NCBI GenBank assembly: GCA_963819345.1 | Contig: CAWFVX010000013.1 | Coordinates: 22,852-86,851, forward strand | From: an uncultured Alphaproteobacteria bacterium | GTDB taxonomy: Bacteria > Pseudomonadota > Alphaproteobacteria > Acetobacterales > Acetobacteraceae | Direction of reading: 5' to 3' | Length of the DNA stretch: 64,000 nucleotides | Shown: one piece after another, positions 20,445 to 61,548 of the stretch | Numbering within the stretch: position 1 is the stretch's first letter | Layout: the number at the start of each line of letters is the position of its first letter | Notes under the pieces: model-generated | Database searches by the model: none | What the model was told of the DNA's origin: nothing | The model's input: only the letters and a program-made list of their open reading frames with translations | Made by a program: the position numbers and the translations under genes

Positions 20445-20516
20445 TCTCCCCCCCGTGTTAAGAGTTTGGCAACTATTGCCGTGGTTCCGTGTCCGGGTTT
20501 TCGCTGGGAAGCCTGC

Positions 20517-26300: not shown

Positions 26301-27064
26301 ACATGACTGCGGACGCTGGTTGCTTCAGGCCTGCCGGAACCGCCGACCTGACGCTGCACGAGGGAAAGACGTTCCACCAGTATACCGACATTTGGGACAC
26401 AAGACCGCGCTACAGCGTCGCATCCTCCGCCGGCAACTCGGCCGCCGCCCGGCACTACCGTCTCGTCTTCCGCGACATCGCCCGATCCAACGATGAGCGC
26501 ACAATGATCGCCTGCATCGCGCCGCCCAGTACGGTGTTCGGCCATACCGCAACCGTTGAGAAGACCCCCTGGGAACGCCCGATCGCTTCGGCTCTGGCAC
26601 TGTGCGCGCTGTTCAACTCGTTCCCGTTCGATTGGCTGGTGCGGCAGAAGGCGGCGACGCACCTTAGTCTGTATCTGCTGCGAGGGCTACCCGTCCCGGC
26701 CTTCAGCGCTAGCGAGAGTCAATTCCTGGCCGGCGCGGCGCTACGTCTGTCCTGCAATCACTCGGGGTATGATGAACTCTGGCGAGATCAGGCTGGCGCG
26801 GTGCATGGGTTGGCGGGATGGGCGCTGCGGGCCGAAATCGATGCCGTAGTGGCGCGTCGCTACGGGCTTGACCGCAGCCAATATGACCACCTGCTACGAG
26901 CTTTCAGCCATCGTTCCTACCCAGAAGCTCCCGCGCTCTGCCTTGCGGCCTTCGATAAGGCCGGGAATGTTGAGGGCCGGGACTCCGATTCGTTCGAGAG
27001 GCGCCCCCCTGCCTCGAAAACACCAGCTCAACTCGGTCGGGCGTCACAGCGCAGGCTGGTGTAA
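23393..27064 (+). CDS. Large gamma-class N6-adenine DNA methyltransferase with a C-terminal specificity-like region (Type IIG/ISP/PglX-like architecture)
   Basis: 1223-aa ORF; SAM motif I IVDPASGSGHFLVEA precedes catalytic motif IV VLGNPPWD; C-terminal YRLVFRDIARSNDERTMIA and LFNSFPFDWLVRQ blocks; GTGA overlap with the helicase stop (alternative ATG at 23435). Confidence 0.85.
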   Translation: MTLDLGDCVLVGSAMTESFLRDGLAPVAHVSSGVEAEWDSLRASLRTGGAQRVHQHVTTKLASTFGYGRPLRQHSVSTREGQEDGGWFLQGANGERLRAWSIPSEIDLDGPDRSARAFRSSPTRIAQRVLLASGERAGLLTNGEVVRLLLCDPSRSDSHLSVGINGWRQEKLPPDSFRILKALAGAEGLTRLSGVLEAARLHQVRVTTSLRRQAREAIVGFINALPDRIGMDPAALWHEGLILVYRLLFILKLESPAEAGTGFSFASTRLWRESLSPNQALGSLVRRHLDQGHDTGRMLESGLRRLFAIFHGGLHCSELNIVPLGGALFGASTTGVLDRIDWGDRAVALLLDRLIWIVSARGERTRVHYGSLDVEDLGSIYEGLLEQEPGIATEPLVRIRRGKMEAVVAAMEQQGDIQSGQFYLRTGMGRKASGSFYTPHEFVRFVVRETLDPKIAALSPLEDPHPARLLTLKIVDPASGSGHFLVEACRHLGEALLTACRLCDERGLHDRIAALPDPDETIAAYLPSRGFSERRARAICRRLVAVHCLYGCDRNKLAVELAKLSLWLESYAEGLPLTFLDHRLVHGDALTGPFFASLSTLPVTGGVLDPLLAGGVADRLDTSLQEARRLVATLNASIGRDITDLRTKQAAKDRLDRVLQPLRQLARAWAGAAMLRERDGDDVWLALASGVAETGFWPDALTDRQAKLLAAGADAVAWDVVFPEVFPGGFSVVLGNPPWDVVLPNTKDFVADYDPAIFDARTRTQRAAIEQAVLARPGVAAAFDAYRLGFDQLKRIAARLYRHQRVRAGSETTAGNLDLFRLFAERNIGLSGADGTIGVLMPSAFHANEGTTGIRRLYLQEAALRLCLSFENRRRIFDIDSRFKFDLIVAQRPGPTKELRCGFYLDRIEDAADPTKIMTYTTQFLDETGGTPLELRGITDQRIAEAVFAQPGRLGTWCAERHIRFGNDLHMTADAGCFRPAGTADLTLHEGKTFHQYTDIWDTRPRYSVASSAGNSAAARHYRLVFRDIARSNDERTMIACIAPPSTVFGHTATVEKTPWERPIASALALCALFNSFPFDWLVRQKAATHLSLYLLRGLPVPAFSASESQFLAGAALRLSCNHSGYDELWRDQAGAVHGLAGWALRAEIDAVVARRYGLDRSQYDHLLRAFSHRSYPEAPALCLAAFDKAGNVEGRDSDSFERRPPASKTPAQLGRASQRRLV

Positions 27065-30821: not shown

Positions 30822-30825
<4 letters not shown>
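29107..30825 (+). CDS. recN: DNA repair protein RecN
   Basis: Walker [17 protein letters not shown], long coiled-coil middle, signature [12 protein letters not shown], Walker [13 protein letters not shown]; ATGA overlap with ligA. Confidence 0.9.
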
Positions 30826-32913
<2,088 letters not shown>

Positions 32914-35954: not shown

Positions 35955-36520
35955 GCCAACCTCCATCTTCGCCGCATGATGACACTGTCGGCCGGGTCGA
36001 ACAGATTGAGCGGCGCTGGGCAGCAGTTGCCGTTGTCGTCATTGTGGTGTTCGTGGTCGTGGCGACCCTCGCTGGCGTGCATCATTCATCGCTGCCACAG
36101 CCCCGCGTCGAGACGGCTGACCCACGCACGCTACATCTGACCGGAGAATTCATCGAGAGCAATCTCGGCAGCGCGCTCGAAGCGGATGGGTCCGTCACCG
36201 TCCGAGCAGTTGGTCAGCAGTATTCGTTCACGCCGCCCTGCGTTGTTGTTCCCGCCGGCATGCCGGTCACGTTCCGCGCTACCAGCGCTGATGTCGTGCA
36301 CGGGTTTCTGATCGACCAGACGAACATAAATCTCATGCTGGTGCCAGGCTATATCTCGGTTTTCACCACCCGCTTCGGTGCCCCCGGCGAGCGGCATATG
36401 CCGTGCCACGAATTCTGCGGCACCGGCCACGAGGGGATGTGGGGACAGATCAAGATCGTCGACAAGGCGGCCTTCACGCAGATGGCGGCTGACCGGCGGA
36501 GGGTAACCTGTGTCCAGTAA
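35951..36520 (+). CDS. Cytochrome c oxidase subunit II, B-family (ba3-like), CuA centre
   Basis: One N-terminal TM helix; CuA ligands VVHGF ... CHEFCGTGHEGM; no fused cytochrome c domain. Confidence 0.85.
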   Translation: MSQPPSSPHDDTVGRVEQIERRWAAVAVVVIVVFVVVATLAGVHHSSLPQPRVETADPRTLHLTGEFIESNLGSALEADGSVTVRAVGQQYSFTPPCVVVPAGMPVTFRATSADVVHGFLIDQTNINLMLVPGYISVFTTRFGAPGERHMPCHEFCGTGHEGMWGQIKIVDKAAFTQMAADRRRVTCVQ

Positions 36521-38135
36521 TCCGCGATTAATCCTTGCCCATTTCTGGCTGGCCTTCATCGGCTTCGGCGGGGCGCTGTTGCTCGGCGCTTGGCAGATGT
36601 TCGTCCGCAGCCCGTTGGCGGGCTGGATCAGCAATCCGGAATGGTACTACCGCTCCGTCACTGCTCACGGCACGACGATGGCATATGTGATGCCGACCCT
36701 GGTCGCGATGGGCTTCGGCTATTTTGTGACCGAGGCGGCTCTGAAGCGCCCCCTGATCGGGCTGTATTGGGCGTGGCTGGGATTTGCGCTGGTCGCGATA
36801 GGCACGGCCATGGCGGTTGTCCCGGTCGCCATGGGGCGTGCCTCGGTGCTCTACACATTCTATCCGCCGCTCGTCGGCGACCCATTCTACTATCTGGGCG
36901 TCGTGCTGGTCGTCGTTGGCTCGTGGATCTGGGTCACACTGATGTCGGCGAACCTTTACTACTGGAAGCGAGACAATCCCGGCGCGCCGGTTCCGCTTGC
37001 AATGTTCGCGACGGTCGCGGGTTCCTATCTCTGGGGCTGGACCGCAGTCGGCGCGGCGTTGGAACTGTTGTTTCAGATCCTGCCCGTGGCGTTGGGCCTG
37101 CGAGCGACGATCGACGCTGGTCTCGCCCGTGTCTTCTTTTCCTGGACGCTGCACGCGATTGTCTATTTCTGGCTGATGCCGGCATACATTGCGTACTACA
37201 CGATCGTGCCGCGGGCGATCGGCGGGCGGCTGTACAGCGATACGATGGGCCGGCTTGCCTTCATCCTGTTTTTGGTCGTGGCGATGCCGATCGGCATTCA
37301 CCACCTGTTCGAGGACCCGCAGGTCGGCTCCGGCTTCAAGTTTCTCCACTCGGTGTTTACCGCACTCGTCACCGTGCCGACACTGCTGACGGTATTTACT
37401 ATCTGCGCGTCGGTTGAAATCGCCGGACGGCTGCGCGGCGGCAAGGGCGCGCTGGGTTGGATCGCCGTGCTGCCCTGGCACAACCCGGTGATGCTTGGCG
37501 CGGCGCTGTCCTTCGTCATGCTGGGCTTCGGCGGGGCCGGCGGCCTGATCAACATGAGCTATCAGCTCAATAGCACGATCCACAATACGCAGTGGGTGAC
37601 CGGGCATTTTCACCTAATCTTCGGTGGCGCCATCGTCATAATGTATTTCGTGATCGCCTACGATGTCTGGCCGCATCTGACCGGGCGGGCATTGGATGAT
37701 TTCCGGCTGATGCGGTGGCAGCTATGGACGTGGTTCGTCGGCATGATCGTGCTGACGTTCCCATGGCACTATGTCGGTATCCTGGGCATGCCACGCCGCA
37801 TGGCGTTCTATGACTACACCGATCCGGTCATTGCGGCGCAGGCAGCCTCGGTCGTGATGTCGGTGGTCGGTGGCCTGATCCTGGTGGTTTCCGGCACGCT
37901 GTTCCTGCTGGTGCTGGCACGTGGTCAGTGGGCGCCACGGAACCAGCCTGGCGCCTACCGCTTCAGCGTGGCGACTCACCCACCGCGCACGCTGCCCGCT
38001 GCCCTGAACGGCCTTGGGCTATGGGTCGGGCTGATGCTCGCACTGACGATTGTGAATTACGGCTTCCCGATAGCCCATGTGCTGGCGATCCCTGGCACGG
38101 CCGTGCCCGCCGTCCCTGTCGGCTCAGCGCGATGA
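36510..38135 (+). CDS. Cytochrome c oxidase subunit I, B-family (ba3-like)
   Basis: 541-aa polytopic ORF; GTG start overlaps the subunit II end; haem/CuB His-containing helices (WTLHAIVYFWLMPAY, GIHHLF, VTGHFHLIFGG). Confidence 0.88.
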   Translation: MSSNPRLILAHFWLAFIGFGGALLLGAWQMFVRSPLAGWISNPEWYYRSVTAHGTTMAYVMPTLVAMGFGYFVTEAALKRPLIGLYWAWLGFALVAIGTAMAVVPVAMGRASVLYTFYPPLVGDPFYYLGVVLVVVGSWIWVTLMSANLYYWKRDNPGAPVPLAMFATVAGSYLWGWTAVGAALELLFQILPVALGLRATIDAGLARVFFSWTLHAIVYFWLMPAYIAYYTIVPRAIGGRLYSDTMGRLAFILFLVVAMPIGIHHLFEDPQVGSGFKFLHSVFTALVTVPTLLTVFTICASVEIAGRLRGGKGALGWIAVLPWHNPVMLGAALSFVMLGFGGAGGLINMSYQLNSTIHNTQWVTGHFHLIFGGAIVIMYFVIAYDVWPHLTGRALDDFRLMRWQLWTWFVGMIVLTFPWHYVGILGMPRRMAFYDYTDPVIAAQAASVVMSVVGGLILVVSGTLFLLVLARGQWAPRNQPGAYRFSVATHPPRTLPAALNGLGLWVGLMLALTIVNYGFPIAHVLAIPGTAVPAVPVGSAR

Positions 38136-51624: not shown

Positions 51625-52884
51625 ATGGCTTCCATTGCCCCAATGACCACCACGCATGATCCGCTGAACCAGCCGAACCCAAGGATCGCCGCCAACGTCA
51701 TGCACTTCGCGCGCCTGCTGCGCCGCGCCGGGCTACCAGTTGGCCCGGCGGAGACGATCGCCGCGCAGGAGGCACTGACCCACATCGATCTCGCCGCCAA
51801 GACACAGGCGTGTACCGCGCTGCGCACCGCGATGATCCATCGCCACGAGCACAGGGAGGTGTTCGACCAAGCCTTCGCCTTGTTCTGGCGCGACCCTTCC
51901 GCCGCCGAACAGGCCGCCGCGATGGCCCTGCTGGAGGCACAGAAAAAGCCTAAGCCCGACCGCGCGCCGCCCGCCTCTCGCCGCGTCGCCGAAGCCTTCG
52001 CGTCGAAAAAGGACAAGCCGCCGCAGCCGAAGGACGAGCCGCCCCCTGTCGACATGTCGATGACGGTGTCCGAGCAGGAGCGGCTCCAGCATATGGATTT
52101 CGAGGCGATGGGCGCCGCTGAAATCAACGAAGCCAAGCGTGAGATCCGCCGCTTGGTGCTGCCGCTGGACCTTCGCCGCACCCGCCGTCTCCGCCCCGAC
52201 CAGAACGGACCCGTTACCGACCTGCGCCGCACCATTCGCGCCAGCCTGCGTCAGGGCGGCGAGATCCTTACCATCGCGCGCAACCGGCGTATCGTCCGGC
52301 CGCCGCCGCTGGTCGTGTTGTGCGACATTTCCGGCTCGATGTCGCGGTATGCCCAGATTCTGCTGCACTTCCTGCACGCAGTGACCAACGACCGCGACCG
52401 CGTCCATGTCTTTCTGTTCGGTACTCGCCTGTCCAACGTCACCCGGCAACTGAAGGCGCGCGATCCCGAGGTTGCATTCCAGATGATCGCTCACGTTGTA
52501 CCCGACTGGTCCGGCGGCACGCGCATCGGCGAGGCCGTCGCCAGCTTCAACCGCCTTTGGGCGAAGCGAGTGCTGGGTCAAGGCGCCGTGGTGCTGCTGA
52601 TCACCGACGGGCTGGACCGCGACGGCGCCCACGGCCTGGCCGAGAACATGGACCGACTCCACCGCTCCTGCACAAGGCTGGTATGGCTCAACCCGCTGTT
52701 GCGCTGGACCGGGTTCGAGCCAAAATCGCAGGGCATCAAGGCGATGCTGCCGCATGTCGACGAATTCCGCCCGGTGCATAATCTGGCCAGCCTGCGGTCT
52801 TTGATCGAACTCGTTGTCACGCCCCGCCCCCCAAGCCTTACGAAGATAACAAGCCTTACGAAGATAAAGGGAACCAGCCGATGA
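51625..52884 (+). CDS. VWA-domain protein, CoxE family
   Basis: N-terminal FARLLRRAGLPVGPAE, then the VWA MIDAS region VVLCDISGSMSRY; start uncertain (51625 or 51643). Confidence 0.78.
   Translation: MASIAPMTTTHDPLNQPNPRIAANVMHFARLLRRAGLPVGPAETIAAQEALTHIDLAAKTQACTALRTAMIHRHEHREVFDQAFALFWRDPSAAEQAAAMALLEAQKKPKPDRAPPASRRVAEAFASKKDKPPQPKDEPPPVDMSMTVSEQERLQHMDFEAMGAAEINEAKREIRRLVLPLDLRRTRRLRPDQNGPVTDLRRTIRASLRQGGEILTIARNRRIVRPPPLVVLCDISGSMSRYAQILLHFLHAVTNDRDRVHVFLFGTRLSNVTRQLKARDPEVAFQMIAHVVPDWSGGTRIGEAVASFNRLWAKRVLGQGAVVLLITDGLDRDGAHGLAENMDRLHRSCTRLVWLNPLLRWTGFEPKSQGIKAMLPHVDEFRPVHNLASLRSLIELVVTPRPPSLTKITSLTKIKGTSR
52832..52867. repeat. Perfect 18-bp tandem duplication at the 3' end of coxE
   Basis: caagccttacgaagataa x2 (52832-52849 and 52850-52867); encodes the duplicated SLTKI(T) tail. 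Confidence 0.9.
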
Positions 52885-53210
52885 GCAGCACCACCGAAGT
52901 CGAGGATGTCCTGGGCACCGCCGCCGCATGGCACGCCGCCGGAGAGCAGGTTGCGGTGGCGACCGTGACCGAAACCTGGGGAAGTTCGCCTCGTCCCGCG
53001 GGCAGTCAGATGGCGGTGACCAGATCCGGCCGCATGGCTGGGTCGGTCTCGGGCGGCTGCATCGAGGGCGCGGTCGCTGACGCGGCGATGAAGACGATCG
53101 AAACCGGCAGCCCGCAATTGCTGGACTTTGGGGTGAGCAACGAGCGGGCGTGGGAGGTCGGCCTCGCCTGTGGCGGCAAGGTCAAGGTGTTTGTCGAGAA
53201 ACTGAGCTGA
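52881..53210 (+). CDS. XdhC/CoxI-family protein (N-terminal-domain type)
   Basis: 109-aa ORF; ATVTETWGSSPRPAGSQMAV...GSVSGGCIEG pattern. Confidence 0.75.
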   Translation: MSSTTEVEDVLGTAAAWHAAGEQVAVATVTETWGSSPRPAGSQMAVTRSGRMAGSVSGGCIEGAVADAAMKTIETGSPQLLDFGVSNERAWEVGLACGGKVKVFVEKLS

Positions 53211-53350
53211 GGAGTTGCCTCCAACCAACTCATAAGCTCACGGCGTCGGGGAGGAGGCACCGGAGCTGCCGCGAAATCTCGCGGTTCACGCCTCCCCTTT
53301 CCAGCGGATGCCGGTATGCTGGCGCAAACACAGTCGCGGGATGAACATCC

Positions 53351-54049
53351 ATGACCCCAGAAGTCCTTGCCGCCGTGGCGCAAGCAAAACAGGAAAAACG
53401 ACCCGTCGTCCTGGCAACGCGTTTGCCCTCCGGTGAGCAGCACTTGCTGCCAGACCCGAACGCTCCGGCGGATCTAAACGAGGCCGCCGCCCGGGCGCTG
53501 GACCGCGACCAAAGCGGAACCGTAAAGCTCGGGGACGTGGACTGGTTTCTACAGGCCTACAATCCGCCGCTCCGGCTGATCGTTGTTGGTGCGGTGCATA
53601 TTGCTCAGGCGCTGGTGCCGTTCGCGGCGCCGTGCGGGTTCTCGGTCACTGTGGTCGACCCACGCCGGTCGTTCGCTTCGGACGAGCGGTTTCCGAACGT
53701 TGAGATCTCCACCGATTGGCCTGATGAGGCGCTGGACACCTTCGCCCCAGACAGCCGCACCGCTGTCGTCACCCTGACGCACGATCCGAAGCTGGACGAC
53801 CCGGCGCTGGATCGCGCGCTGAAGTCGCAGGCGTTCTACATTGGCGCCCTTGGTTCCCGCCGGACCCATGCCGCGCGCTTGAAACGACTTCGCGAACTGG
53901 GCCATCAGGACAACGCCTTATCCCGCATCCGCGGTCCGGTCGGCCTGAATATCGAAGCCGTCACCGCGCCGGAAATCGCCTTGTCGATCATCGCCGAGAT
54001 CGTCGGCGTCCGCCGCAACGCGCCGCTGCCGCCGAAACCCGCTCCATGA
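53351..54049 (+). CDS. XdhC-family protein (Rossmann-domain type)
   Basis: LIVVGAVHIAQALV dinucleotide-fold strand; THDPKLDDPAL; YIGALGSRRTH. Confidence 0.75.
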   Translation: MTPEVLAAVAQAKQEKRPVVLATRLPSGEQHLLPDPNAPADLNEAAARALDRDQSGTVKLGDVDWFLQAYNPPLRLIVVGAVHIAQALVPFAAPCGFSVTVVDPRRSFASDERFPNVEISTDWPDEALDTFAPDSRTAVVTLTHDPKLDDPALDRALKSQAFYIGALGSRRTHAARLKRLRELGHQDNALSRIRGPVGLNIEAVTAPEIALSIIAEIVGVRRNAPLPPKPAP

Positions 54050-55704
54050 AGTTTGGCCCGGTCCCGCTGGACGAGGCCCGCGGTGCCATCATGGCGCACA
54101 GCCAAAAGGTCGGCGAACGGATGATCCGCAAGGGATCGCTGCTGGATGACAAGGCGATCGAGGCGTTGCGGGCGGCCGGCCGGTCGGAGGTAATTTGCGC
54201 CCGCCTGGAACCTGGCGACGTTCCGGAAGACATCGCGGCCGATCGCCTTGCGACCCCCCTGCTGTCGCCGCTGATCGCCCGGTCGCGCGCCGCCACAGGG
54301 CGGGTGAACCTGTCCGCTGAGGTCCCTGGATTACTGCGTATCGACGTCGGCCGGATCGACCGGCTGAACAGCATCGACGAGGCGCTCACGATTGGCACGC
54401 TGCCGGACTATGCCGTTGTCGCGCCGAAAGACCTGATCGCGACGATCAAGATTATCCCGTTCTCGGTCCCTGGAAACGTCCTGTCGGTAGCGGAAGCTAT
54501 GGTTCGTCAAGGTACCAGTCCGCTGACGCTGCACCCGTTCCGGCACCTGAAGGTCGGTCTGGTGGTGACCGAACTCCCCGGCCTGAAGGACAGCGTCACA
54601 GACAAGACCATCGCGATCACCGAGGCCCGGATTTCCGCCCTGACCGGCTCCTTGCTGCCTCCGGTCCTTTGCGCACATGAGGAAGAAGCCATTGGCCGGG
54701 CGCTGGACGGACTGGTCGGCGGGGGGGGCGACTTGCTTTTGGTCATTGGCGCCTCGGCCGTGGTGGACCGACGAGACGTCGGGCCGGCTGGAATCATGCG
54801 GGCGGGCGGGGAAATCCTGCATTTCGGCATGCCGGTCGATCCGGGCAACCTCATCTGCCTTGGCCAGATCGGCGAAAGGCCGGCGTTGGTGCTGCCTGGA
54901 TGCGCTCGCAGCCCTAGCCTCAACGGTATCGACTTCGTGCTGACCCGCCTGTTCGCCGGCGTCCCGGTTACTCCGCGTGACATGATGCGGATGGGCGTCG
55001 GTGGCCTTCTGAAGGAGATGGAGACGCGGCCCATGCCGCGTGAAAAGGCGCCGGCGACGCCTAGGTCCGGTGCCGCGCCGCGCAGCGCGCCGGTGATTGC
55101 CGGGGTTGTTCTAGGGGCAGGCCGGTCTCGGCGGATGGCGCCCCACAACAAACTGCTCGTTACCGACAAGGCCGGCAAGCCCATGGTCGCCCGGGTCGTC
55201 GACAACGTCTTGTCTTCCAATGCCCGACCGATTCTGGTCGTGACCGGCCATCAGGCCGAGCAGGTGGAGCATGCGCTGGGCGGCCGGCCGGTGCGATATG
55301 TGTATGCGGCCGACTATGCCGATGGTCTGTCCGCCAGCCTGAAGGCCGGGATCGCCGCGGTGCCGCCGGAATGCGCCGCCGCCGTGGTCTGCCTCGGTGA
55401 CATGCCGCTGGTGACGGGCCGGATGATCGACCGATTGTTATCGATGTACGACCCCGAGGAAGGCCGGCTGATCGTGCTGCCGACGTTCCGTGGCAAGCAG
55501 GGCAATCCAATGCTGTGGGACAAAAGGTTCTTCCCGGAGATCCTGCAGATCGGCGGCGATACGGGCGCGCGGTTTTTGATCGGTAAACACGCCGAATTCG
55601 TGTGCGAGGTCGAAATGGCGGACGATGCGGTGCTCCGGGACTTTGACACGACGGAATCGTTGACGACGCTGCCAAAGGGCATGCGGCCGGAGGGGGTCGG
55701 GTAA
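54046..55704 (+). CDS. Molybdopterin-binding domain fused to a MobA/MocA-like nucleotidyltransferase
   Basis: ATGA overlap with xdhC; MoeA/CinA-like GDLLLVIGASAVVDRRD region; C-terminal AGVVLGAGRSRRM NTP-transferase motif. Confidence 0.72.
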   Translation: MKFGPVPLDEARGAIMAHSQKVGERMIRKGSLLDDKAIEALRAAGRSEVICARLEPGDVPEDIAADRLATPLLSPLIARSRAATGRVNLSAEVPGLLRIDVGRIDRLNSIDEALTIGTLPDYAVVAPKDLIATIKIIPFSVPGNVLSVAEAMVRQGTSPLTLHPFRHLKVGLVVTELPGLKDSVTDKTIAITEARISALTGSLLPPVLCAHEEEAIGRALDGLVGGGGDLLLVIGASAVVDRRDVGPAGIMRAGGEILHFGMPVDPGNLICLGQIGERPALVLPGCARSPSLNGIDFVLTRLFAGVPVTPRDMMRMGVGGLLKEMETRPMPREKAPATPRSGAAPRSAPVIAGVVLGAGRSRRMAPHNKLLVTDKAGKPMVARVVDNVLSSNARPILVVTGHQAEQVEHALGGRPVRYVYAADYADGLSASLKAGIAAVPPECAAAVVCLGDMPLVTGRMIDRLLSMYDPEEGRLIVLPTFRGKQGNPMLWDKRFFPEILQIGGDTGARFLIGKHAEFVCEVEMADDAVLRDFDTTESLTTLPKGMRPEGVG

Positions 55705-55708
55705 GCCT

Positions 55709-57163
55709 CTAGGTATCTTGCAGGCCGCACAGTGACCACGGCACGCCATTCCACCACCACATCACGTGTCTATACCAAAGACCGAGCCGAGCGGACAGCG
55801 ACGGGCGGACGGGGTCGTAGACCTCGATATTGGCCATCATGCCAGCATCTTCGTGCCGCAGGACATGGCAGTGGAATACGAACCGACCCAGGATCAGGGG
55901 GTCGGTGAACGGCATCCGCAGCTTCACCTGACCACGTTCCGGTACAAGCACGGTATCAACATAGCCCGTGAACGGGACCGGCTTCCCGTTGGTCTCAACG
56001 ACCTGGAAGCTGATCTGGTGAATGTGGAAGATGTGCATATCGTCGGAATCGTTCCGTATCGTCCATTCCTCAATGTTGCCCAAGGGTATACGGATATCCA
56101 TCCGGCTCTCGTCGAACAACTTGCCGTTGACAAAAAAGAGTTGGCGGTCCGCCTTCGTCATAGTGGTCTGGGAAAAAACGACCTCGCGCGTCGCGTCGAT
56201 CCGGACCGCGCGCAGATCCGGGGGCGCGACTGTGGATGCTGCCGCGATCGTCGAAGGTAGTTCGTCTCCGGCGACATCCAATGAGCCGATCTCCCGGTCC
56301 GGCGTTTGTTCTGATCCGGTGCCCGTCATGATTCCTTTCGCCACCAGTGCGTAGCGGCCAACTTCCCCGGCATCGACGAGAACGTCGACGCGGGCGCTTG
56401 GCGAAACGTCCAGTACGTAGGTGGAACGTTCATTGACCGTTGCCTGGCCATCTTCTGCCACGACGCGAAAGCGATGGCCGTTCAATGCAATATGGAGCGC
56501 TCTGTCGGCACTCTGGTTGGTGAAGCGCCACAGTTGAGTTTCCCCCGGCCGCATGGCTTCGTTGGTCGTCAGCTGACCGTTCACCGACTGAACGATGCCA
56601 TGCATGGTGTCGTCGACCTCGGCATTGCCAGTGTCGTCGTCAAACACCATGTCCTTTAATACAAACAACCGCTGCGTCATCGATATCGGTTCTGGTGGTT
56701 CAACTATGAGCGTCCCGCTAAGGCCGCTCATGATCTGATGTTCGGCTATGCCGTGTACATGGGCGTGATACCAGTATAGACCTGGTGGTTGGGTGAGCGG
56801 TATCCTTACCTCGTAGTCGAAGCTATGGCCCGGTTGAATAACGAGATGCGGATTGTCGCTGTTGCCAAGGGGCGAGGTCTGAATGCCATGAAAGTGCAGG
56901 TTGGTCGGTTGCGACAGGTGGTTGACGAGCATCAGGCGCATTACGTCGCCTGGATGGACGTGCAGCACCGGTCCCGCGTAGACACCATTGTAGGTGGCGC
57001 CATCGAGTTCGAGGTTTCCGACCTGAACCTTTTCCTCTGCCGCCACCAATGTCGTCGACAGAACGCCGTCATGGCTAAAGATTTCGGTCGGGCTACCCGG
57101 ATCGTTCGCGCGCGCGATTGAAGTGCCGAGCAGTATCGCCAGTACGAGAAGGGCGATTCGCAT
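55709..57163 (-). CDS. Three-domain multicopper oxidase
   Basis: All four copper motifs present: LHFHG, WYHAHVHG, HIFHIHQ and HCHVLRHEDAGMM; Sec-type signal [19 protein letters not shown]; ATG 57163 overlaps the MCP stop (TGATG). Confidence 0.88.
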   Translation of the reverse strand: MRIALLVLAILLGTSIARANDPGSPTEIFSHDGVLSTTLVAAEEKVQVGNLELDGATYNGVYAGPVLHVHPGDVMRLMLVNHLSQPTNLHFHGIQTSPLGNSDNPHLVIQPGHSFDYEVRIPLTQPPGLYWYHAHVHGIAEHQIMSGLSGTLIVEPPEPISMTQRLFVLKDMVFDDDTGNAEVDDTMHGIVQSVNGQLTTNEAMRPGETQLWRFTNQSADRALHIALNGHRFRVVAEDGQATVNERSTYVLDVSPSARVDVLVDAGEVGRYALVAKGIMTGTGSEQTPDREIGSLDVAGDELPSTIAAASTVAPPDLRAVRIDATREVVFSQTTMTKADRQLFFVNGKLFDESRMDIRIPLGNIEEWTIRNDSDDMHIFHIHQISFQVVETNGKPVPFTGYVDTVLVPERGQVKLRMPFTDPLILGRFVFHCHVLRHEDAGMMANIEVYDPVRPSLSARLGLWYRHVMWWWNGVPWSLCGLQDT

Positions 57164-59043
57164 CAGGCCGCGCGTTTTCCGCGGATCCATTCGACCAGCG
57201 CACGTGGGGCCGCGGTGGAATCCCATGGGAAGCGGATGCTGGCTTCCTCACCATCCCGCAAGATCGTGCCGCTCAGATCTGGCAGACCCCCCACACGAAG
57301 GACAACGGCCGTTCCGGCCCCGATCCGGTGCTCCGACTGGACCCGTGCACCGCCAAAGCTGAGATCCAGGCAAATCACCGGCAGAGGGTTGCCGTTCAGG
57401 ACCAGCGTGGCCGGCAGATTGATCGAAACGCGCTCATCCTCCCGCCGGTTGGCGGCGTCCGACGACGTACGAACGATGCGGACCATTACATTTCGCAGCT
57501 CCGAAATATGCTCGGCTACCTCTCCAGCCACCGAGCGCATTTCGTTCACGGCCGCATCGGTCCCTTGTGCTTCTTGCGAAACCGACTTTACTTGAGCAGA
57601 GACTATCCGCATCGCCTCGGCTGTGCCAAGCACGTTGCGCGCAATCTCACCAGTTGCAGCCGTCTGCTGTTCCGCGGCTGCCGCAATCGTTTGAGTAATG
57701 CCCTCGATCGCGGCCACCCGGCCCACCATTTCCCCAACCACTCTCACCGCGTCGTGGGTAGCGCTTTGTACACTGCTGACGGCTCGCGCGATTTCCTCGG
57801 TGGATCGCGCGGTTTGTGTGGCCAGGGTCTTGACCTCGCCGGCAACCACAGCAAAGCCGCGACCGGCCTCACCCGCGCGGGCCGCCTCGATTGTCGCGTT
57901 CAGCGCCAGCAAATTGGTTCGTCCGGCGATGTCTCGGATCAACTGGGCGACCGCGCCTATCTGGCCCATCGACGCCGACAGCGCATCGATAATCGTGCGC
58001 GCTTGTTCGCCTGCCCGCGCAGTGCTCGCGATTTCGGCAGTGGAAACGGTAATCTGGGAGGCGATTTCGCTCGCCGAGCTTGAGAGCTTCTCCCCCGCGG
58101 CGGCGACGATCTCGCAGCTGTGCAGCGCGTCGTTGCTGGCGCCGGCTGCCGAGTCCACGCTCGCCAGCATGCGGGCCGCGGAGGCGGCGAGTTCCCCCGC
58201 CCGATCTGACAGAAGAACGCCGCTTCGAGAGGATCGTTCGGCGACAGTCGTGGTCTCGCGCTCGATGCTGTCCGCGGCGCTGCGCAAGGCTTCCACCTTC
58301 TCGGTCTCAGCTCGCTCGTGTTGCTCCTCACGTTCCGCGCCGGCCCGGGCGTTTTGTTGCATCGCCTCGCGGAACACGGCCGCTGCGCGTGCGACACCCC
58401 CGATCTCATCGCGGCGCGCAGACAGCCGGGGCGGGACGGCGAGATCCAAATCCCCCGCGGCCAGACGGGCAATGATGCGGGAAAGTTGACCCAAGGGGCG
58501 CGACAGATCGCGGCCCAGAACAAAGCCAACCCCAAGAGCAATGCCGACGGCGACGGCGATCTGAATCAGCACGACACGCGTGCTGCGACCAGCCGTCTCA
58601 TCCGCGTCGTCGCGCGCTTCCAAACCGTCGGCGGCAAACTTCTGCACCAGCTTCGTCAATGACCGATCAGCTTGCGTCATCCGATCAGTTAATTCCGGCG
58701 CAGGTGTTTCCGCCAACGAGGCCAGCAGTCCGCGCGTTTTTTTGCCCGCATCCCGGGCAGTGTCGGAAGCCGCTCGGTCCAGTGCGACATCGAGCAGGCT
58801 GAGCACCTTTTGCAGATCGCCTGTCGCGCCGACCGTCCCGCCGGCTGCCTGCTGGCTGTTCTTGAACCGCAGGAACTCGTTCTGCGCTTGGTTGACGTAA
58901 GACATACCCATGAACGCATGATCGAAGATGCCGATCGCCAGACGCCCCATTTGCGATGCCTGTTGCTGTGCCAGCACGCCAAGCAGGGCGATGATGGCGA
59001 CAAAGCCGAGGCACGCCGCCAGGATTTTCATACGCACGGACAT
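57163..59043 (-). CDS. Methyl-accepting chemotaxis protein with a C-terminal PilZ domain
   Basis: Two TM segments flanking a periplasmic helical domain; HAMP; signalling hairpin [31 protein letters not shown]; PilZ motifs RREDER (RRxxxR) and DLSFGG (DxSxxG). Confidence 0.88.
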
Positions 59044-59080
59044 CAAGGATTCCTGTCGAGAAAGGCAGCTGGCAGCAATG

Positions 59081-59402
59081 TCACTTAACCGTTACGGTCA
59101 TCTTCATGCTTGGATGGATACTGCAGCGGATCTTGAAGCGCCCGGCCTTGTCGAACGCATACTTTACGGTCTCTCCCGGTTTCTGCAAACCGAGATCCGT
59201 CGCGTCGTCTTCGTCGTTCAGTACCCGTGATGTTATGGCTCACGTCGTCCTGGTTCTGGAAGTTCAGAGTATCACCCGGCTTCAGGTCAATCGATTTTTC
59301 GCTAAACTTCTGCCCACTCTGCGAGATGTTTGTCGCGGCGGCGCGAACATCGGCGCCTCCGGCGACGAGCATTGTCGCGAGCACGATGGCTGATACACGC
59401 AT
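59081..59402 (-). pseudogene. Type-1 (blue) copper protein, amicyanin-like, frame-disrupted
   Basis: Signal peptide plus His ligand in DVSHNI (ORF 59085..59402); after acg-g-gta (about 59225) the true tail [47 protein letters not shown] (ligand loop C-x2-H-x2-M) runs in another frame to the stop at 59081-59083. Confidence 0.7.
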
Positions 59403-59428: not shown

Positions 59429-60808
59429 TTAGAAACGGGCTGCAGCCCAGATGCTGAAGTATAGGGCGTTGTTGGCGGCCGCATTATTGGTGACGCCGTC
59501 GAAGCGGAAGTAGCTGACGTATTGCACGGCTAGGCGGACATTGCCCCACGAGATAAAGGAGTCCGGCTTACCCCATGGCACATACGCGATCTCAGCGATC
59601 ATGCCCGAAGTGTTCGGACTACCGTTCGGCGTTGCCCAATACGCCGGGTCGCCGGTGCCGTTGGTTTGGAAATATTGGATCGAGGGCGTGACGGTCGCGC
59701 CTAGACTATACGACACATCGGCGCGAAACGTATTCAGGCCATGATATGGCAGCGAACCGTTGATTGCCCTGCTGGCGCCGAGCCAGCCGTCCTCGTGGAT
59801 CAGGGTGGCGTGTGCTGAGACTATGTCGCTGGTGACGCTGCGAGGATTGACGTAAAACTGGTAGTTGGCGTCCAGCGCGAGATCGGTGAACTGATCCGCT
59901 TGGCCGGGAACTTCGATGCCGCCGGGTGCCACGTTCCCATTCAGGCCGTATGTGCCGACTTCGAAGTAGTGGCGGCCAAAATCCTTCTGCAGTGCCAGGC
60001 GCCAGTAGGGAATGACTCCCAGCGTCTTGTCGGTATTGGCGACTGGAACGATCCCGGTGGCGTTCAGCACGTCATACCCAAGGCCCCGATAGAGGTCGAA
60101 CTCGGCGTAGACCAGACTGTTCCACATTGCATAGGCGCCGGCCCCGGCTACGCGTTGGCCCAGGCCGCCATCGATCAATGTCGCTGCCAAAGGCGTTGGG
60201 GCGAGCGGCGAGCTGTTATATGGAAAGCTCCAGACCGGCGTTGAATTCCACAGGTCAGACACGGTCGGGCTGTTGTTAGCAGTAAAACCGTAGACGAAAT
60301 CTTCGTCGAACAAGTCCGTGTCGTGCGCATAACGGATGTCAGCGTTGTCGACATGTCCCTGATCGGCGACGCCGTCATAGGTGAGTTGAATGAAGGCGCC
60401 AAACCCCCCGGCAATTTTCCCGGCGTAATACACGGACGCCTGGTCCATCGCGAAGTTGTTGTTGGAGGCGAAATGCGGGGCGGCCGGACCCGGCTGATCG
60501 TTGTTGGTGTGGGTGAAGGATAATTGCGTGGTGACCGCGAGCGGTAGGCCGTGTTTCTTATTATCGGTTGCGGTGTAGCCGTTCAGCTTAAATTCGCGGC
60601 CGAATTTGGTGAGCTGCGGCCCGAAAGCGCCAACGTGACATGCCGCACAGGGCTGTCCGGTCTGCCCCGCGAACGATGGAACGGCGGTAGCGGTGATGGG
60701 CCGGAGCAGCAGAAACGCGGCGAGGATAGACCCAAATGCAAACCGCAGGATGAACCGCAACCGCAGAATGCGGGCCCGCGGCGGAAGCGAGAGCTGCGGC
60801 ACACTCAT
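59429..60808 (-). CDS. Fused monohaem cytochrome c / outer-membrane beta-barrel (Cyc2-like architecture)
   Basis: Signal peptide, then a single CXXCH (PSFAGQTGQPCAACHVGAFGPQLTKFGREFKLNGY), then about 400 aa with an alternating beta-strand pattern ending in ..WAAARF (terminal Phe beta-signal). Confidence 0.7.
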   Translation of the reverse strand: MSVPQLSLPPRARILRLRFILRFAFGSILAAFLLLRPITATAVPSFAGQTGQPCAACHVGAFGPQLTKFGREFKLNGYTATDNKKHGLPLAVTTQLSFTHTNNDQPGPAAPHFASNNNFAMDQASVYYAGKIAGGFGAFIQLTYDGVADQGHVDNADIRYAHDTDLFDEDFVYGFTANNSPTVSDLWNSTPVWSFPYNSSPLAPTPLAATLIDGGLGQRVAGAGAYAMWNSLVYAEFDLYRGLGYDVLNATGIVPVANTDKTLGVIPYWRLALQKDFGRHYFEVGTYGLNGNVAPGGIEVPGQADQFTDLALDANYQFYVNPRSVTSDIVSAHATLIHEDGWLGASRAINGSLPYHGLNTFRADVSYSLGATVTPSIQYFQTNGTGDPAYWATPNGSPNTSGMIAEIAYVPWGKPDSFISWGNVRLAVQYVSYFRFDGVTNNAAANNALYFSIWAAARF

Positions 60809-61042
60809 TCTCTTAGCGCCACGCCCTAACGATCAGTGTAGACGGAAGCATGCTGCCTGGCTCTCCGAAAAAGGAGTTCTGATTAGGCCCGCAAACATGA
60901 ATTAAGGGTTAAAGCGATCCTGAAATACCTCGGGGTAAACGATCTCAGCACAGGGCATGTTAGAGCAGAGCAAAAACTCTTCTGTGCTCTGGTTTATGGA
61001 CGCCGGTGACCCTTGGTTTGCAGTGCAATCGAGAACATCTAT

Positions 61043-61060
61043 TTCTGTTCGATAACAGAA
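61043..61060. promoter_or_regulatory. Inverted repeat TTCTGTT-N4-AACAGAA upstream of the cytochrome-porin operon
   Basis: 7-bp perfect arms separated by cgat, 235 nt upstream of the operon start in a 480-nt non-coding spacer. Confidence 0.2.
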
Positions 61061-61291
61061 CCGATTCACTTGGCCGCGGAAGCAAGCAGTTGATTAAAGG
61101 CTAGCCAATAACAGCTGACCTTTCTCCGAAAGTTTTCCGAAGGGTGGGGCAGCAACGTTTCCGGCGCCCAGGGGGCCGGTGGGATTGAGCAGGACCTTGC
61201 CGAGGACCCTTCCGGCGTCGAAGGCAAGCCGCTGGGGAACCAAGCCTATTCGACCTGCGTTGGATCAGCGATAGACAAGCAGGAGGACGTT

Positions 61292-61504
61292 GTGGATCGG
61301 ATCAAAGTCTTGGACGAAACGCTGTGGCATCAGGTCCCCAAGGATGTGATCATCGAGGCCGAACATGCCGCGAAGGAGACCCCCGTTTGGATCGCTCGAC
61401 AGAGTAACGGCCATATTGTCGCGATGGACGGACCGGGAAACCCCGGAGTTGCTACCGGGGATATCACTTTCATCGCCGAGGTGGCGCCTAGCGTAGGACC
61501 GTGA
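61292..61504 (+). CDS. Hypothetical small protein
   Basis: 70-aa ORF; GTG start 5 nt after AGGAGG; followed by a hairpin; no recognisable motifs. Confidence 0.3.
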   Translation: MDRIKVLDETLWHQVPKDVIIEAEHAAKETPVWIARQSNGHIVAMDGPGNPGVATGDITFIAEVAPSVGP

Positions 61505-61519
61505 CAGTGGTCCTACGCT
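61490..61519. terminator. Perfect 11-bp stem hairpin between convergent genes
   Basis: agcgtaggacc (61490-61500) / ggtcctacgct (61509-61519) with an 8-nt loop; overlaps the stop of the small ORF; no U-tract. Confidence 0.45.
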
Positions 61520-61548
61520 GAGAAATCAGCGTCGCGTAGACGATCGTG

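What the first reader, a model, noticed from the sequence alone, without database searches (positions are those of the whole stretch)
59429..60808. Cyc2-like fused monohaem cytochrome-porin in a Bradyrhizobiaceae-like, non-acidophile genome
The protein has a signal peptide and then one CXXCH within about 20 residues of the predicted cleavage site (..ATAVPSFAGQTGQPCAACH..). This is followed by a roughly 400-aa beta-barrel-like sequence ending in a terminal Phe. It is 459 aa long. That is the architecture reported for Cyc2 iron oxidases: a small N-terminal cytochrome plug fused to a porin. I cannot judge sequence homology to Cyc2 by eye. Only the architecture and the neighbouring cupredoxin support the analogy.
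Basis: partly seen in the sequence, partly recalled or inferred. Interest (0 to 1): 0.65.

Follow-up and report, generated by a model that had tools for sequence, protein, structure and literature searches.

The report
Cyc2-type cytochrome-porin with cupredoxin partner
The gene encodes a true relative of Cyc2, the outer-membrane haem-plus-pore protein that iron-oxidising bacteria use to take electrons from dissolved iron; in this soil-bacterium lineage it always sits beside a small blue-copper protein and usually a membrane sensor, so it may serve sensing as much as energy.

Summary
ORF 59429..60808 (-) encodes 459 aa: a signal peptide, one CXXCH 11 residues after the predicted cleavage site, a predicted 16-strand beta-barrel and a terminal Phe.

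The Cyc2 reading is supported by homology. The protein is 32% identical over 455 aa (E 2e-41) to the cyc2 product of an Acidithiobacillus rus operon. A profile built only from sequences that pass the published Cyc2 screen scores it 497 bits.

It belongs to a divergent clade:
- The Arg of the defining AXPXFAR[Q/K][T/Y] motif is replaced (AVPSFAGQT), so the published tree-building screen would drop it.
- The PXL motif sits two residues further from the haem site.

The context is new to the papers I searched:
- In all 78 related loci with enough downstream DNA, a plastocyanin-like cupredoxin follows directly.
- 25 of 30 well-flanked loci also carry a signalling protein sharing one periplasmic sensor module. 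Its outputs vary: MCP-PilZ as here, GGDEF-EAL, or histidine kinases.
- A multicopper oxidase completes the operon here.

The window's cupredoxin frameshift is probably an assembly error. Iron oxidation itself is untested. The Bradyrhizobiaceae assignment could not be checked. Verdict: a real Cyc2 homologue and a new variant of a known kind.

The parts
59429..60808 (-). cyc2-like gene: a fused monohaem cytochrome c and 16-strand outer-membrane porin, 459 aa
   Evidence: ORF. Homology to Acidithiobacillus rus-operon Cyc2. Canonical-Cyc2 profile score of 497 bits. AF2 barrel. Foldseek matches to 16-strand porins.
60683..60808 (-). Predicted signal peptide, residues 1-42, with cleavage ATA|VP
   Evidence: Read from the sequence. 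AF2 helix 10-34. The Acidithiobacillus Cyc2 aligns at AWA|LPSFARQTG.
60611..60685 (-). Cytochrome motif block, residues 42-66: AVPSFAGQT-GQP-CAACH-VGAFG-PQL. CXXCH lies at 60635..60649.
   Evidence: P44, T50-C54, C57-G60 and F62-L66 are invariant in A1. The position equivalent to the Cyc2 Arg (G48) is variable. Motif definition from PMC8406198.
59438..60541 (-). 16-strand beta-barrel domain, residues 90-457. It includes the conserved loop NNSPTVSDLWNSTPVWSFPY, which is shared with Acidithiobacillus Cyc2.
   Evidence: DSSP strands. Alignment to Cyc2. W454 and F459 are invariant.
59081..59402 (-). Plastocyanin-like type-1 copper protein (cupredoxin), about 106 aa. It is broken in the window by a 1-nt insertion near 59224-59228.
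   Evidence: Frame analysis. Alignment to the intact L001 gene. Pfam Copper-bind 1e-9 for the intact form. Ligands H, then C-x2-H-x4-M, are conserved. Present directly downstream in all 78 loci with enough downstream DNA. Contigs from 3 other runs lack the extra base.
57163..59046 (-). Chemoreceptor, 627 aa: TM, a periplasmic domain of about 130 aa with no Pfam family, TM, HAMP, MCP signalling domain, then a C-terminal PilZ domain (c-di-GMP binding)
   Evidence: Pfam. The N-terminal sensor module is shared with neighbouring GGDEF-EAL, histidine-kinase and hybrid-kinase proteins in related loci.
55709..57163 (-). Three-domain multicopper oxidase, 484 aa from the ATG that overlaps the chemoreceptor stop codon (TGATG)
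   Evidence: Pfam Cu-oxidase_3, Cu-oxidase and Cu-oxidase_2. Nearest NCBIfam model is CueO, below its cut-off. Overlap read. Same position in L001, L003, L027, L028, L032 and L059.
60809..61548 (.). 740-bp upstream intergenic region, presumably holding the promoter. It contains a conserved 70-aa ORF on the opposite strand (61292..61504).
   Evidence: The same 70-aa ORF is called in L001. No Rfam match. No sigma-70 consensus promoter or convincing terminator between the four genes.

Best explanation
The gene encodes a Cyc2-family outer-membrane protein of the A. ferrooxidans type ('Cluster 2' in McAllister 2020). After export, about 375 residues form a 16-strand barrel in the outer membrane. 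The short N-terminal monohaem c domain (VPSFAGQTGQPCAACH...PQL) sits at or in the periplasmic mouth of the barrel.

By homology, a small dissolved reductant enters the pore and reduces the haem. Fe(II) is the most likely reductant. The electron then passes to the co-transcribed periplasmic plastocyanin-like cupredoxin.

In this genome the two genes head a four-gene operon: cyc2-like, cupredoxin, MCP-HAMP-PilZ chemoreceptor, multicopper oxidase. I infer that the multicopper oxidase can re-oxidise the cupredoxin with O2. I also infer that the chemoreceptor's periplasmic module monitors this small redox chain. On this view the module serves periplasmic oxidation and behavioural sensing rather than a dedicated energy-conserving respiratory chain.

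Shown:
- homology, motif conservation and the predicted fold
- the strict cyc2-like/cupredoxin gene pairing
- the recurrent sensor module

Inferred:
- haem attachment and outer-membrane location
- Fe(II) as substrate
- every electron-transfer step
- the link to the sensor
For: Homology to rus-operon Cyc2:
- 32% identity over 455 aa, E 2e-41.
- Family profile hits at E 8e-48 to 3e-38.
- A canonical-only profile scores the window protein 497 bits.
- The profile search found 3204 clusters. The more distant ones carry the exact motif A[VL]PSFARQTG..C..CH..FPELTPFGR.

Fold and haem site:
- 16 strands and porin folds.
- Exactly one CXXCH in every full-length close homologue and in 123 of 124 full-length representatives.

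Partner logic:
- The cupredoxin lies directly downstream on the same strand in all 78 related loci with at least 450 nt downstream.
- All four type-1 copper ligands are conserved.
- Its nearest solved relatives are electron carriers: the cupredoxin domain of a Cu nitrite reductase, pseudoazurin and amicyanin.
- Other branches of the family pair instead with HiPIPs or small c-cytochromes. In Acidithiobacillus the neighbours are Cyc1, a cupredoxin-like ORF and rusticyanin.
- So a small periplasmic acceptor is the common theme.

Operon:
- Gaps of 26 and 38 nt, then a TGATG overlap.
- The same four-gene cassette occurs in different genomic flanks (L003).

Sensor:
- One TM-periplasmic-TM module is fused to five output types next to the gene pair.
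- It is present in 25 of 30 loci with at least 3 kb on both flanks.

Function of relatives: Cyc2 proteins from all three clusters oxidise Fe(II) in vitro (PMC8406198).
Against: - There is no biochemical datum for this clade.
- The Arg of the defining motif is missing, and the CXXCH-to-PXL spacing is 2 residues longer. The haem environment may therefore differ.
- Keffer et al. warn that function in the large non-Cluster-1 groups is uncertain.
- The AF2 confidence for the cytochrome segment is low, pLDDT about 50. The 'plug' position is therefore not modelled.
- The multicopper oxidase is present in only 19 of 87 loci, so it is not a core part.
- No cytochrome c or terminal oxidase lies in the operon. 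A COX1 gene lies 21 kb away.
- The cupredoxin reading frame is broken in this very assembly. That is probably an artefact.
- Gene adjacency does not prove physical interaction.
Confidence: 0.55

Rival explanations
1. Sensory conduit. The Cyc2-like protein and the cupredoxin are the input device of the adjacent sensor. The redox state of the cupredoxin is set by extracellular Fe(II) or another reductant through the pore-cytochrome, and by O2 through the multicopper oxidase. The conserved periplasmic module reads that state and converts it into chemotaxis (modulated by c-di-GMP through PilZ), c-di-GMP turnover or phosphorelay. Energy gain is irrelevant on this view.
For: - The same sensor module (E 7e-56 in L111) is fused to MCP-PilZ, MCP alone, PAS-GGDEF-EAL, a histidine kinase or a hybrid kinase, always next to the gene pair.
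- 25 of 30 well-flanked loci carry it.
- Chemoreceptor and GGDEF-EAL outputs do not regulate transcription. Adjacency therefore cannot be explained as control of the operon's expression.
- The periplasmic module has no conserved Cys, His or Met. This fits a protein partner rather than direct metal binding.
- Flagellar gene clusters lie next to the locus in L001 and L004.
Against: - The evidence is synteny only; no interaction or phenotype is known.
- 5 of 30 well-flanked loci lack the sensor.
- I could not test the reciprocal association, that is, whether this sensor module ever occurs without the gene pair. The search on it returned only 13 short fragments.
- I know of no characterised sensor that reads a cupredoxin (own knowledge).
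Confidence: 0.3
2. Energy-conserving lithotrophic or mixotrophic Fe(II) oxidation, as in known iron oxidisers. Electrons go from Cyc2-like to the cupredoxin, which plays the role of rusticyanin, and then to a haem-copper oxidase or the bc1 complex encoded elsewhere. The sensor merely steers cells to Fe(II).
For: - Homology to A. ferrooxidans Cyc2, which works with rusticyanin.
- Some Bradyrhizobium strains oxidise Fe(II) and carry Cyc2 homologues (PMC5566968).
- A COX1 gene is in the window at 36510..38135.
Against: - No oxidase, cyc1-like cytochrome or carbon-fixation gene is linked in any of the 87 loci examined for these neighbours.
- The published Bradyrhizobium Cyc2 cluster has a HiPIP and three cytochromes, which is a different branch (compare L106).
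- The clade is widespread in ordinary soil metagenomes.
Confidence: 0.12
3. Copper or manganese handling. The multicopper oxidase and the cupredoxin form a periplasmic Cu(I) or Mn(II) oxidation and detoxification unit. The Cyc2-like protein is its outer-membrane partner, analogous to PcoB with PcoA, or oxidises Mn(II), as proposed for the Cyc2 homologues of 'Ca. Manganitrophus' (own knowledge of that proposal).
For: - A CueO/PcoA-like multicopper oxidase is in the same operon, translationally coupled.
- A porin-multicopper-oxidase idea was raised for Fe(II)-oxidising Bradyrhizobium (PMC5566968).
- A paper on the Manganitrophaceae came up in the Cyc2 literature search (PMC9040806); I did not read it.
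Against: - The multicopper oxidase is present in only 19 of 87 loci, whereas the cupredoxin is always there.
- No copA, copB, copC, copD or cusRS genes are nearby.
- The cupredoxin is a minimal electron carrier of about 85 residues with no His/Met-rich metal-binding tail.
- The multicopper oxidase has no Met-rich insert (sequence).
Confidence: 0.08
4. An ordinary diffusion porin whose CXXCH is incidental, that is, not a cytochrome.
For: - Foldseek's best hits are general porins such as OmpT, Omp32 and OmpK36.
- No cytochrome Pfam domain is detected.
Against: - The CXXCH and 20 flanking residues form the most conserved block of the whole family.
- The protein is homologous to a biochemically proven haem protein.
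- No porin family matches by sequence.
Confidence: 0.02

Closest known systems
Cyc2 of Acidithiobacillus ferrooxidans and relatives (first gene of the rus operon; Cluster 2 in McAllister et al. 2020)
   Same: - Signal peptide, one CXXCH right after the cleavage site, and a barrel of about 400 aa.
- 32% identity over the full length.
- Shared blocks: PSFA.QTG..CAACH, P.LT..GR.FKL.G, NN.PT..DLWN.TP.W..P and PY.RLA.
- A copper protein is the periplasmic partner in the same operon.
   Different: - Arg of FARQT is replaced by Gly, and this position is variable in the clade.
- There is a two-residue insertion between CXXCH and PXL.
- The partner is a plastocyanin-like protein of about 85 residues lying directly downstream, not rusticyanin at the far end of an oxidase operon.
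- There is no cyc1 and no cox genes. A sensor and a multicopper oxidase stand in their place.
Cyc2PV-1 of Mariprofundus ferrooxydans and other Cluster 1 Cyc2 proteins of neutrophilic iron oxidisers (Keffer et al. 2021, PMC8406198)
   Same: - The architecture: monohaem, 16 predicted strands, more than 365 aa.
- The motif logic used to define the family.
   Different: - No Cluster 1 sequence was available, so I made no direct comparison.
- Published identities between clusters are only 17-23%.
- The window protein groups with the A. ferrooxidans type.
- It fails the PXFAR[Q/K][T/Y] screen by one residue.
Bradyrhizobium Cyc2 from a pyrite-oxidising enrichment (Percak-Dennett et al. 2017, as described in He et al. 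2017, PMC5566968)
   Same: - A Cyc2 homologue in a Bradyrhizobium-type soil alphaproteobacterium.
   Different: - That gene is clustered with a HiPIP and three c-type cytochromes. This resembles the canonical-motif branch seen in L106.
- The window clade instead has a cupredoxin plus a sensor.
Rusticyanin and AcoP (periplasmic cupredoxins of the A. ferrooxidans iron chain)
   Same: - A type-1 copper protein encoded with a cyc2 gene, presumed to accept electrons on the periplasmic side (PMC5982212 listed).
   Different: - The window's cupredoxin is much smaller and has a plastocyanin-type C-x2-H-x4-M loop.
- By sequence it is closest to pseudoazurin, amicyanin and the cupredoxin domain of a Cu nitrite reductase, not to rusticyanin.
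Chemoreceptors with a C-terminal PilZ domain, for example Azospirillum brasilense Tlp1 (own knowledge, not checked here)
   Same: - The architecture TM-periplasmic-TM-HAMP-MCP-PilZ.
- Tlp1 integrates c-di-GMP into energy taxis.
   Different: - The periplasmic module here has no Pfam family.
- It is tied by synteny to a cytochrome-porin and a cupredoxin.
- Homology to Tlp1 was not tested.
PcoAB/CopAB multicopper-oxidase plus outer-membrane-protein pairs, and MtoAB/PioAB/MtrAB porin-cytochrome complexes
   Same: - An outer-membrane barrel working together with a periplasmic redox protein.
   Different: - PcoB is a barrel with 10-12 transmembrane segments and no haem.
- Mto and Mtr barrels have 26 strands and enclose a separate decahaem protein.
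- Here the haem domain is fused to a 16-strand barrel.

Membership tests
Cyc2 fused cytochrome-porin family (criteria of Keffer et al. 2021 and FeGenie) | N-terminal signal peptide | tested here: met
   Arg-rich n-region, hydrophobic helix 10-34 and an ATA|VP site. This aligns with AWA|LP of Acidithiobacillus Cyc2. No dedicated predictor was run.
Cyc2 fused cytochrome-porin family (criteria of Keffer et al. 2021 and FeGenie) | Exactly one CXXCH haem-binding motif near the N-terminus | tested here: met
   C54-H58. It is invariant, and every full-length relative but one has exactly one copy.
Cyc2 fused cytochrome-porin family (criteria of Keffer et al. 2021 and FeGenie) | Length of at least 365 aa | tested here: met
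   459 aa.
Cyc2 fused cytochrome-porin family (criteria of Keffer et al. 2021 and FeGenie) | AXPXFAR[Q/K][T/Y] motif upstream of CXXCH. PXFAR[Q/K][T/Y] was used as a hard screen for the published tree. | tested here: not met
   The window has AVPSFAGQT, which matches 8 of 9 positions, with Arg replaced by Gly. All 118 close homologues that match the motif pattern lack the Arg and carry E, Q, G, A, K and other residues there. More distant full-length relatives and Acidithiobacillus Cyc2 have the exact motif.
Cyc2 fused cytochrome-porin family (criteria of Keffer et al. 2021 and FeGenie) | PXL motif about 4 residues downstream of CXXCH | tested here: inconclusive
   PQL is present and invariant, but the Pro is the 6th residue after the His (H-VGAFG-PQL) rather than the 4th (H-TSY-PQL in Acidithiobacillus). 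The 'long' form occurs in 46 of 128 representatives.
Cyc2 fused cytochrome-porin family (criteria of Keffer et al. 2021 and FeGenie) | Beta-barrel porin domain of 16 predicted strands | tested here: met
   The AF2 model has 16 strands between residues 90 and 457. Foldseek finds 16-strand porins at TM 0.5-0.58 normalised by target length.
Cyc2 fused cytochrome-porin family (criteria of Keffer et al. 2021 and FeGenie) | Significant full-length sequence similarity to a characterised Cyc2 | tested here: met
   BLASTP gives 32% identity over 455 aa, E 2e-41, against the rus-operon Cyc2 of A. ferrianus. Profile E-values are 8e-48 to 3e-38. The canonical-only profile scores 497 bits.
Cyc2 fused cytochrome-porin family (criteria of Keffer et al. 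2021 and FeGenie) | Score above the calibrated cut-off of a FeGenie Cyc2 cluster HMM | not testable with these tools
   The FeGenie HMMs and the figshare alignment were not available. My own surrogate profile is not the published one.
Cyc2 fused cytochrome-porin family (criteria of Keffer et al. 2021 and FeGenie) | Covalent haem, outer-membrane location and Fe(II) oxidase activity | not testable with these tools
   These need experiments.
General diffusion porins and phosphate porins (OmpC/OmpF, Omp32, OprP/OprO) | Sequence match to a porin family model | tested here: not met
   No Pfam or NCBIfam hit at E up to 1. No PDB sequence hit with either the single sequence or the profile. The resemblance is at the level of fold only.
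Plastocyanin/azurin-type cupredoxins (for the downstream gene) | Copper-bind domain with His, Cys, His and Met ligands | tested here: met
   Pfam PF00127 at 1e-9, above its cut-off, for the intact L001 form. H56 and C93-x2-H96-x4-M101 are conserved across loci. The window copy is frameshifted.

The most novel reading that the evidence does not exclude
A whole clade of Cyc2-type cytochrome-porins is not a respiratory iron oxidase. Instead it is the outer-membrane antenna of a three-part trans-envelope redox sensor. The pore-cytochrome samples extracellular Fe(II), or another reductant, and sets the redox state of a dedicated periplasmic cupredoxin. A conserved periplasmic module reads that state and is plugged into chemotaxis (with c-di-GMP input through PilZ), c-di-GMP synthesis and breakdown, or two-component phosphorelay. 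Where a multicopper oxidase is present, it makes the cupredoxin a comparator of reductant against O2.
Probability: 0.3. Interest if true: 0.8.

Novelty: new variant of a known kind. Interest (0 to 1): 0.55.

Why it matters
cyc2 is used as the marker gene for iron oxidation in metagenomes.

First, this clade is common in soil, peat-type and rhizosphere data. The metagenome scan found 473 related stretches, and the wider family has 3204 clusters at 50% identity. The clade is homologous to proven Cyc2, so HMM-based tools will probably count it. Yet motif-based screens drop it, because the Arg is missing. Whether it should count as iron-oxidation potential is therefore a practical annotation question.

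Second, the invariable cupredoxin partner gives a directly testable electron acceptor for a Cyc2-type protein from a non-acidophilic setting.

Third, the recurrent sensor module with interchangeable outputs suggests that some Cyc2 homologues in bacteria not known as iron oxidisers serve redox or Fe(II) sensing and behaviour. This would help explain the long-standing puzzle of why so many such bacteria carry cyc2.

Tried and rejected
- Pfam, NCBIfam and PDB sequence searches of the protein and its profile found nothing. No solved Cyc2 structure was detectable.
- The supplements of Keffer et al. hold no sequences.
- A full-text search for motif strings such as FARQY only found German 'Infarkt' papers. 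That search was wasted.
- Cluster look-ups gave no names, accessions or organisms, so taxonomy could not be established.
That left no scan for the taxonomic spread of the clade.
- The search for homologous proteins on the sensor module returned only 13 short fragments. The reciprocal association and an alignment-based fold of the module could therefore not be done.
- I considered a c-di-GMP riboswitch or another RNA element upstream, but there is no Rfam hit.
- There is no consensus promoter or convincing terminator within the operon.
- The His/Met motif (DHAFMGM) in the chemoreceptor's periplasmic domain looked like a possible copper site, but it is not conserved.
- The 'RNA' soil runs give only sparse fragments at 92-99% identity over the four genes. 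This is too weak to claim expression.
- The plasmid collection holds homologues at 42% identity or less, in Caballeronia, Polymorphobacter, Ralstonia, Acidiphilium, an A. ferrooxidans plasmid and Methylocystis. None is from the cupredoxin clade.
Full report
**1. What is there**

The minus-strand ORF 59429..60808 encodes 459 aa. Its parts are as follows.
- A signal-peptide-like N-terminus, residues 1-42, ending ATA|VP.
- The block AVPSFAGQT-GQP-CAACH-VGAFG-PQL.
- About 370 residues that AlphaFold2 folds into 16 beta strands, residues 90-457. The alignment had 54 sequences; mean pLDDT is 78 and pTM 0.75.
- A terminal Phe.

Foldseek against the PDB returns 16-strand general porins (OmpT, Omp32, OmpK36, VhChiP) and AlgE, with TM 0.5-0.58 relative to the target. 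No Pfam, NCBIfam or PDB sequence match exists. The CXXCH starts 11 residues after the predicted cleavage site.

**2. The haem motif is not a chance feature**

The protein belongs to a very large unannotated family.
- More than 1573 proteins were found by the word-indexed search, all named 'hypothetical'.
- A profile search of 1.84 billion representatives found 3204 clusters at 50% identity with E up to 1e-3, and 667 with E up to 1e-30.
- All 119 full-length close homologues have exactly one CXXCH. So do 123 of 124 full-length representatives; one of these lies behind an N-terminal extension. The single exception reads CxxCY.
- The cytochrome block is the most conserved part of the alignment.

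**3. Is it Cyc2?**

Keffer et al. 2021 define the family by these features (PMC8406198):
- a signal peptide
- one CXXCH
- at least 365 aa
- a porin with 16 predicted strands
- an AXPXFAR[Q/K][T/Y] motif before the haem site
- a PXL motif after it

No Cyc2 sequence was directly available. I therefore searched the species-representative genomes with the rusticyanin sequence, which I first verified as identical to PDB 1CUR. This recovered Acidithiobacillus rus operons.

L009 is from A. ferrianus plasmid p1MG. It shows the canonical order: a 485-aa ORF, a dihaem cytochrome, a cupredoxin-like ORF, COX2, COX1, coxC, then rusticyanin. The 485-aa Cyc2 begins ...AWALPSFARQTGWSCAACHTSYPQLTPMGR.

The comparisons gave these results.
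- BLASTP of the window protein against this Cyc2: 32% identity over 455 aa, E 2e-41. That is as high as published identities among members of the A. ferrooxidans group (26-35%) and above the between-group values of 17-23%.
- The window family's profile hits six Acidithiobacillus Cyc2 proteins at E 8e-48 to 3e-38, with Z = 1.8e9.
- A profile built only from 61 representatives that pass the published screen, plus those six proteins, scores the window protein 497 bits over residues 23-456.

Homology to Cyc2 is therefore established. A. ferrooxidans Cyc2 is 'Cluster 2' in McAllister et al. 2020.

**4. How it differs from canonical Cyc2**

- In the window and in all 118 close homologues that match the motif pattern, the Arg of the motif is replaced. 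The window has Gly; others have E, Q, A, K and other residues.
- The PXL motif is shifted by two residues: H-VGAFG-PQL against H-TSY-PQL.
- Among the 128 full-length representatives, 64 have the canonical Arg with the short form, 23 have Arg with the long form, and 23 have the window's combination of no Arg with the long form. The remaining 18 fall in minor or unmatched classes.
- The published tree-building screen required PXFAR[Q/K][T/Y]. This clade would have been removed by it, although an HMM plus haem plus length rule would probably keep it.
- For this reason I do not file it as a strict motif-defined member. I file it as a divergent clade of the Cyc2 homologous family.

**5. Context in the window**

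Four minus-strand genes follow each other.
- cyc2-like, 59429..60808.
- After 26 nt, a cupredoxin, 59081..59402.
- After 38 nt, a 627-aa chemoreceptor with HAMP, MCP signalling and C-terminal PilZ domains, 57163..59046.
- Overlapping the stop codon (TGATG), a three-domain multicopper oxidase, 55709..57163.

These are supported. No terminator-like site separates them convincingly.

The cupredoxin frame is broken by one extra base in a G-run near 59224. The 94%-identical relative L001 has an intact 106-aa protein with His, then Cys-x2-His-x4-Met ligands.

Contigs at 99% identity or more from three independent soil metagenome runs all lack that base. The essential ligA gene in the same window is also split by frameshifts. 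The break is therefore most likely an assembly error.

**6. Context across relatives**

I combined five loci fetched by exact protein look-up, 80 loci from a metagenome scan (57-80% identity) and one more distant locus. I then searched them for the neighbours.

- *Cupredoxin.* In all 78 loci with at least 450 nt downstream, a cupredoxin gene lies directly after cyc2-like on the same strand. One search flagged 17 of them as lacking it. In 16 the cupredoxin ORF was found but its called start ran upstream into cyc2-like, an artefact of my ORF calling. In the last, L037, only the tblastn search finds it, as a weak hit.
- *Sensor.* A protein carrying the same N-terminal TM-periplasmic-TM module as the window's chemoreceptor is present in 57 of 87 loci, and in 25 of 30 loci with at least 3 kb on both flanks. 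It lies downstream on the same strand in 21 loci and upstream and divergent in 31.
- *Outputs.* The module is fused to five different outputs: HAMP-MCP-PilZ, MCP alone, (HAMP-)PAS-GGDEF-EAL, HAMP-HisKA-HATPase, and a hybrid kinase with REC and Hpt domains (E 7e-56 for the module in L111).
- *Nature of the module.* It has no Pfam family and no conserved Cys, His or Met.
- *Multicopper oxidase.* It occurs in 19 of 87 loci.
- *Other branches of the family.* These pair with other small periplasmic carriers. L106 has two HiPIPs. L109/L110 and Polymorphobacter have a monohaem cytochrome c. Caballeronia has a HiPIP plus a c-type cytochrome.

A small soluble acceptor next to the pore-cytochrome is thus the common theme. 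The cupredoxin plus sensor combination is specific to this clade.

**7. Mechanism**

Shown:
- homology to an outer-membrane Fe(II)-oxidising cytochrome
- conserved haem site and barrel
- an obligate genomic partner that is a type-1 copper electron carrier
- operon structure
- a recurrent sensor module

Inferred:
- Fe(II) or another small reductant reaches the haem through the pore, as proposed for Cyc2.
- The haem reduces the cupredoxin.
- The cupredoxin is re-oxidised by the multicopper oxidase with O2, or by the respiratory chain.
- The sensor module reports on this chain.

From general knowledge, the potentials allow this order. Cyc2PV-1 is at 208 mV, typical cupredoxins at about 250-370 mV, and the T1 sites of multicopper oxidases are higher.

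I rate the conduit-to-cupredoxin model at 0.55. The stronger sensory reading gets 0.3, classical energy-conserving iron oxidation 0.12, copper or manganese handling 0.08, and a haem-less porin 0.02.

**8. Novelty**

Cyc2 homologues in Bradyrhizobium and in the Hyphomicrobiales are already published. The published Bradyrhizobium cluster has a HiPIP and cytochromes, which is a different branch. In the searchable library I found no paper that links a cyc2 gene to a cupredoxin plus chemoreceptor, c-di-GMP or kinase neighbourhood. This is absence from that library, not proof of absence. I call the finding a new variant of a known kind.

**9. Limits**

- The FeGenie HMMs were not run.
- No Cluster 1 or Cluster 3 sequence was compared.
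- Taxonomy and habitat pH are untested. The only relevant facts are 62-63% G+C and matches in soil, rhizosphere and sediment metagenomes.
- The AF2 model is uncertain for the cytochrome segment, with pLDDT about 50.
- Transcript evidence is too sparse to use.
- All functional statements are inferences.

Noticed in passing
window 59081-59402, near 59224-59228: The cupredoxin gene has a 1-nt insertion in a G-run. Contigs at 99% identity or more from three other soil runs lack the base, so this is probably an assembly error rather than a pseudogene.
   Followed up: yes
window 30822-32872: The NAD-dependent DNA ligase gene (ligA) is split into a 168-aa ORF and a 515-aa ORF, and its C-terminal tail also looks out of frame. 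Frameshifts in an essential gene point to indel errors in this assembly.
   Followed up: partly
L001 9765-11636; L030 8333-8641: Related metagenome assemblies show similar breaks. The chemoreceptor is split in two in L001, and the cupredoxin is frameshifted at a different place in L030.
   Followed up: no
window 55709-57226: The multicopper oxidase has a Sec-like rather than a twin-arginine leader if it starts at the overlapping ATG ([19 protein letters not shown]). It ends in an unusual Trp-rich tail (WYRHVMWWWNGVPWSLCGLQDT). It has no Met-rich insert.
   Followed up: no
window 57163-59046 and relatives (L004, L057, L100, L111): A periplasmic sensor module of about 130 aa with no Pfam family carries the conserved motifs YD.AF...Y, LD.A.ER and DGL.ARDD. 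It is fused to five different output architectures.
   Followed up: partly
L001 1-4341; L004 1201-6189: Flagellar gene clusters (fliM, fliL, flgF, flgG, flgA, flgH; flhB, fliR, fliQ, fliE, flgC, fliP) lie just upstream of the cyc2-like locus in two differently arranged relatives.
   Followed up: no
window 61292-61504 (+): A 70-aa ORF in the 740-bp region upstream of cyc2-like is also called in the 94% relative L001. It has no Pfam match.
   Followed up: partly
window 20466-27064: An SNF2/ResIII helicase (976 aa) is followed by an Eco57I/MmeI-type methyltransferase fusion of 1223 aa. This looks like a restriction-modification or defence island.
   Followed up: no
window 36510-38135: A haem-copper oxidase subunit I (COX1) gene lies in a 2-kb bin with a strongly negative AT skew (-0.23). 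It is 21 kb from the cyc2-like operon.
   Followed up: no
window 51625-55704: CoxE-like VWA, XdhC/CoxI (in two ORFs) and MobA-like NTP-transferase genes abut the operon. These are accessory genes for molybdo-enzymes. The same genes flank it in L001.
   Followed up: no
P0146 (family representative): One full-length family member has CAGCY in place of CXXCH. This is a possible haem-less derivative.
   Followed up: no
L006, L009 (Acidithiobacillus ferruginosus and A. ferrianus plasmids): Complete rus operons, including cyc2 and rusticyanin, are carried on plasmids in these strains. A. ferrianus also has a chromosomal rusticyanin homologue at 80% identity.
   Followed up: no
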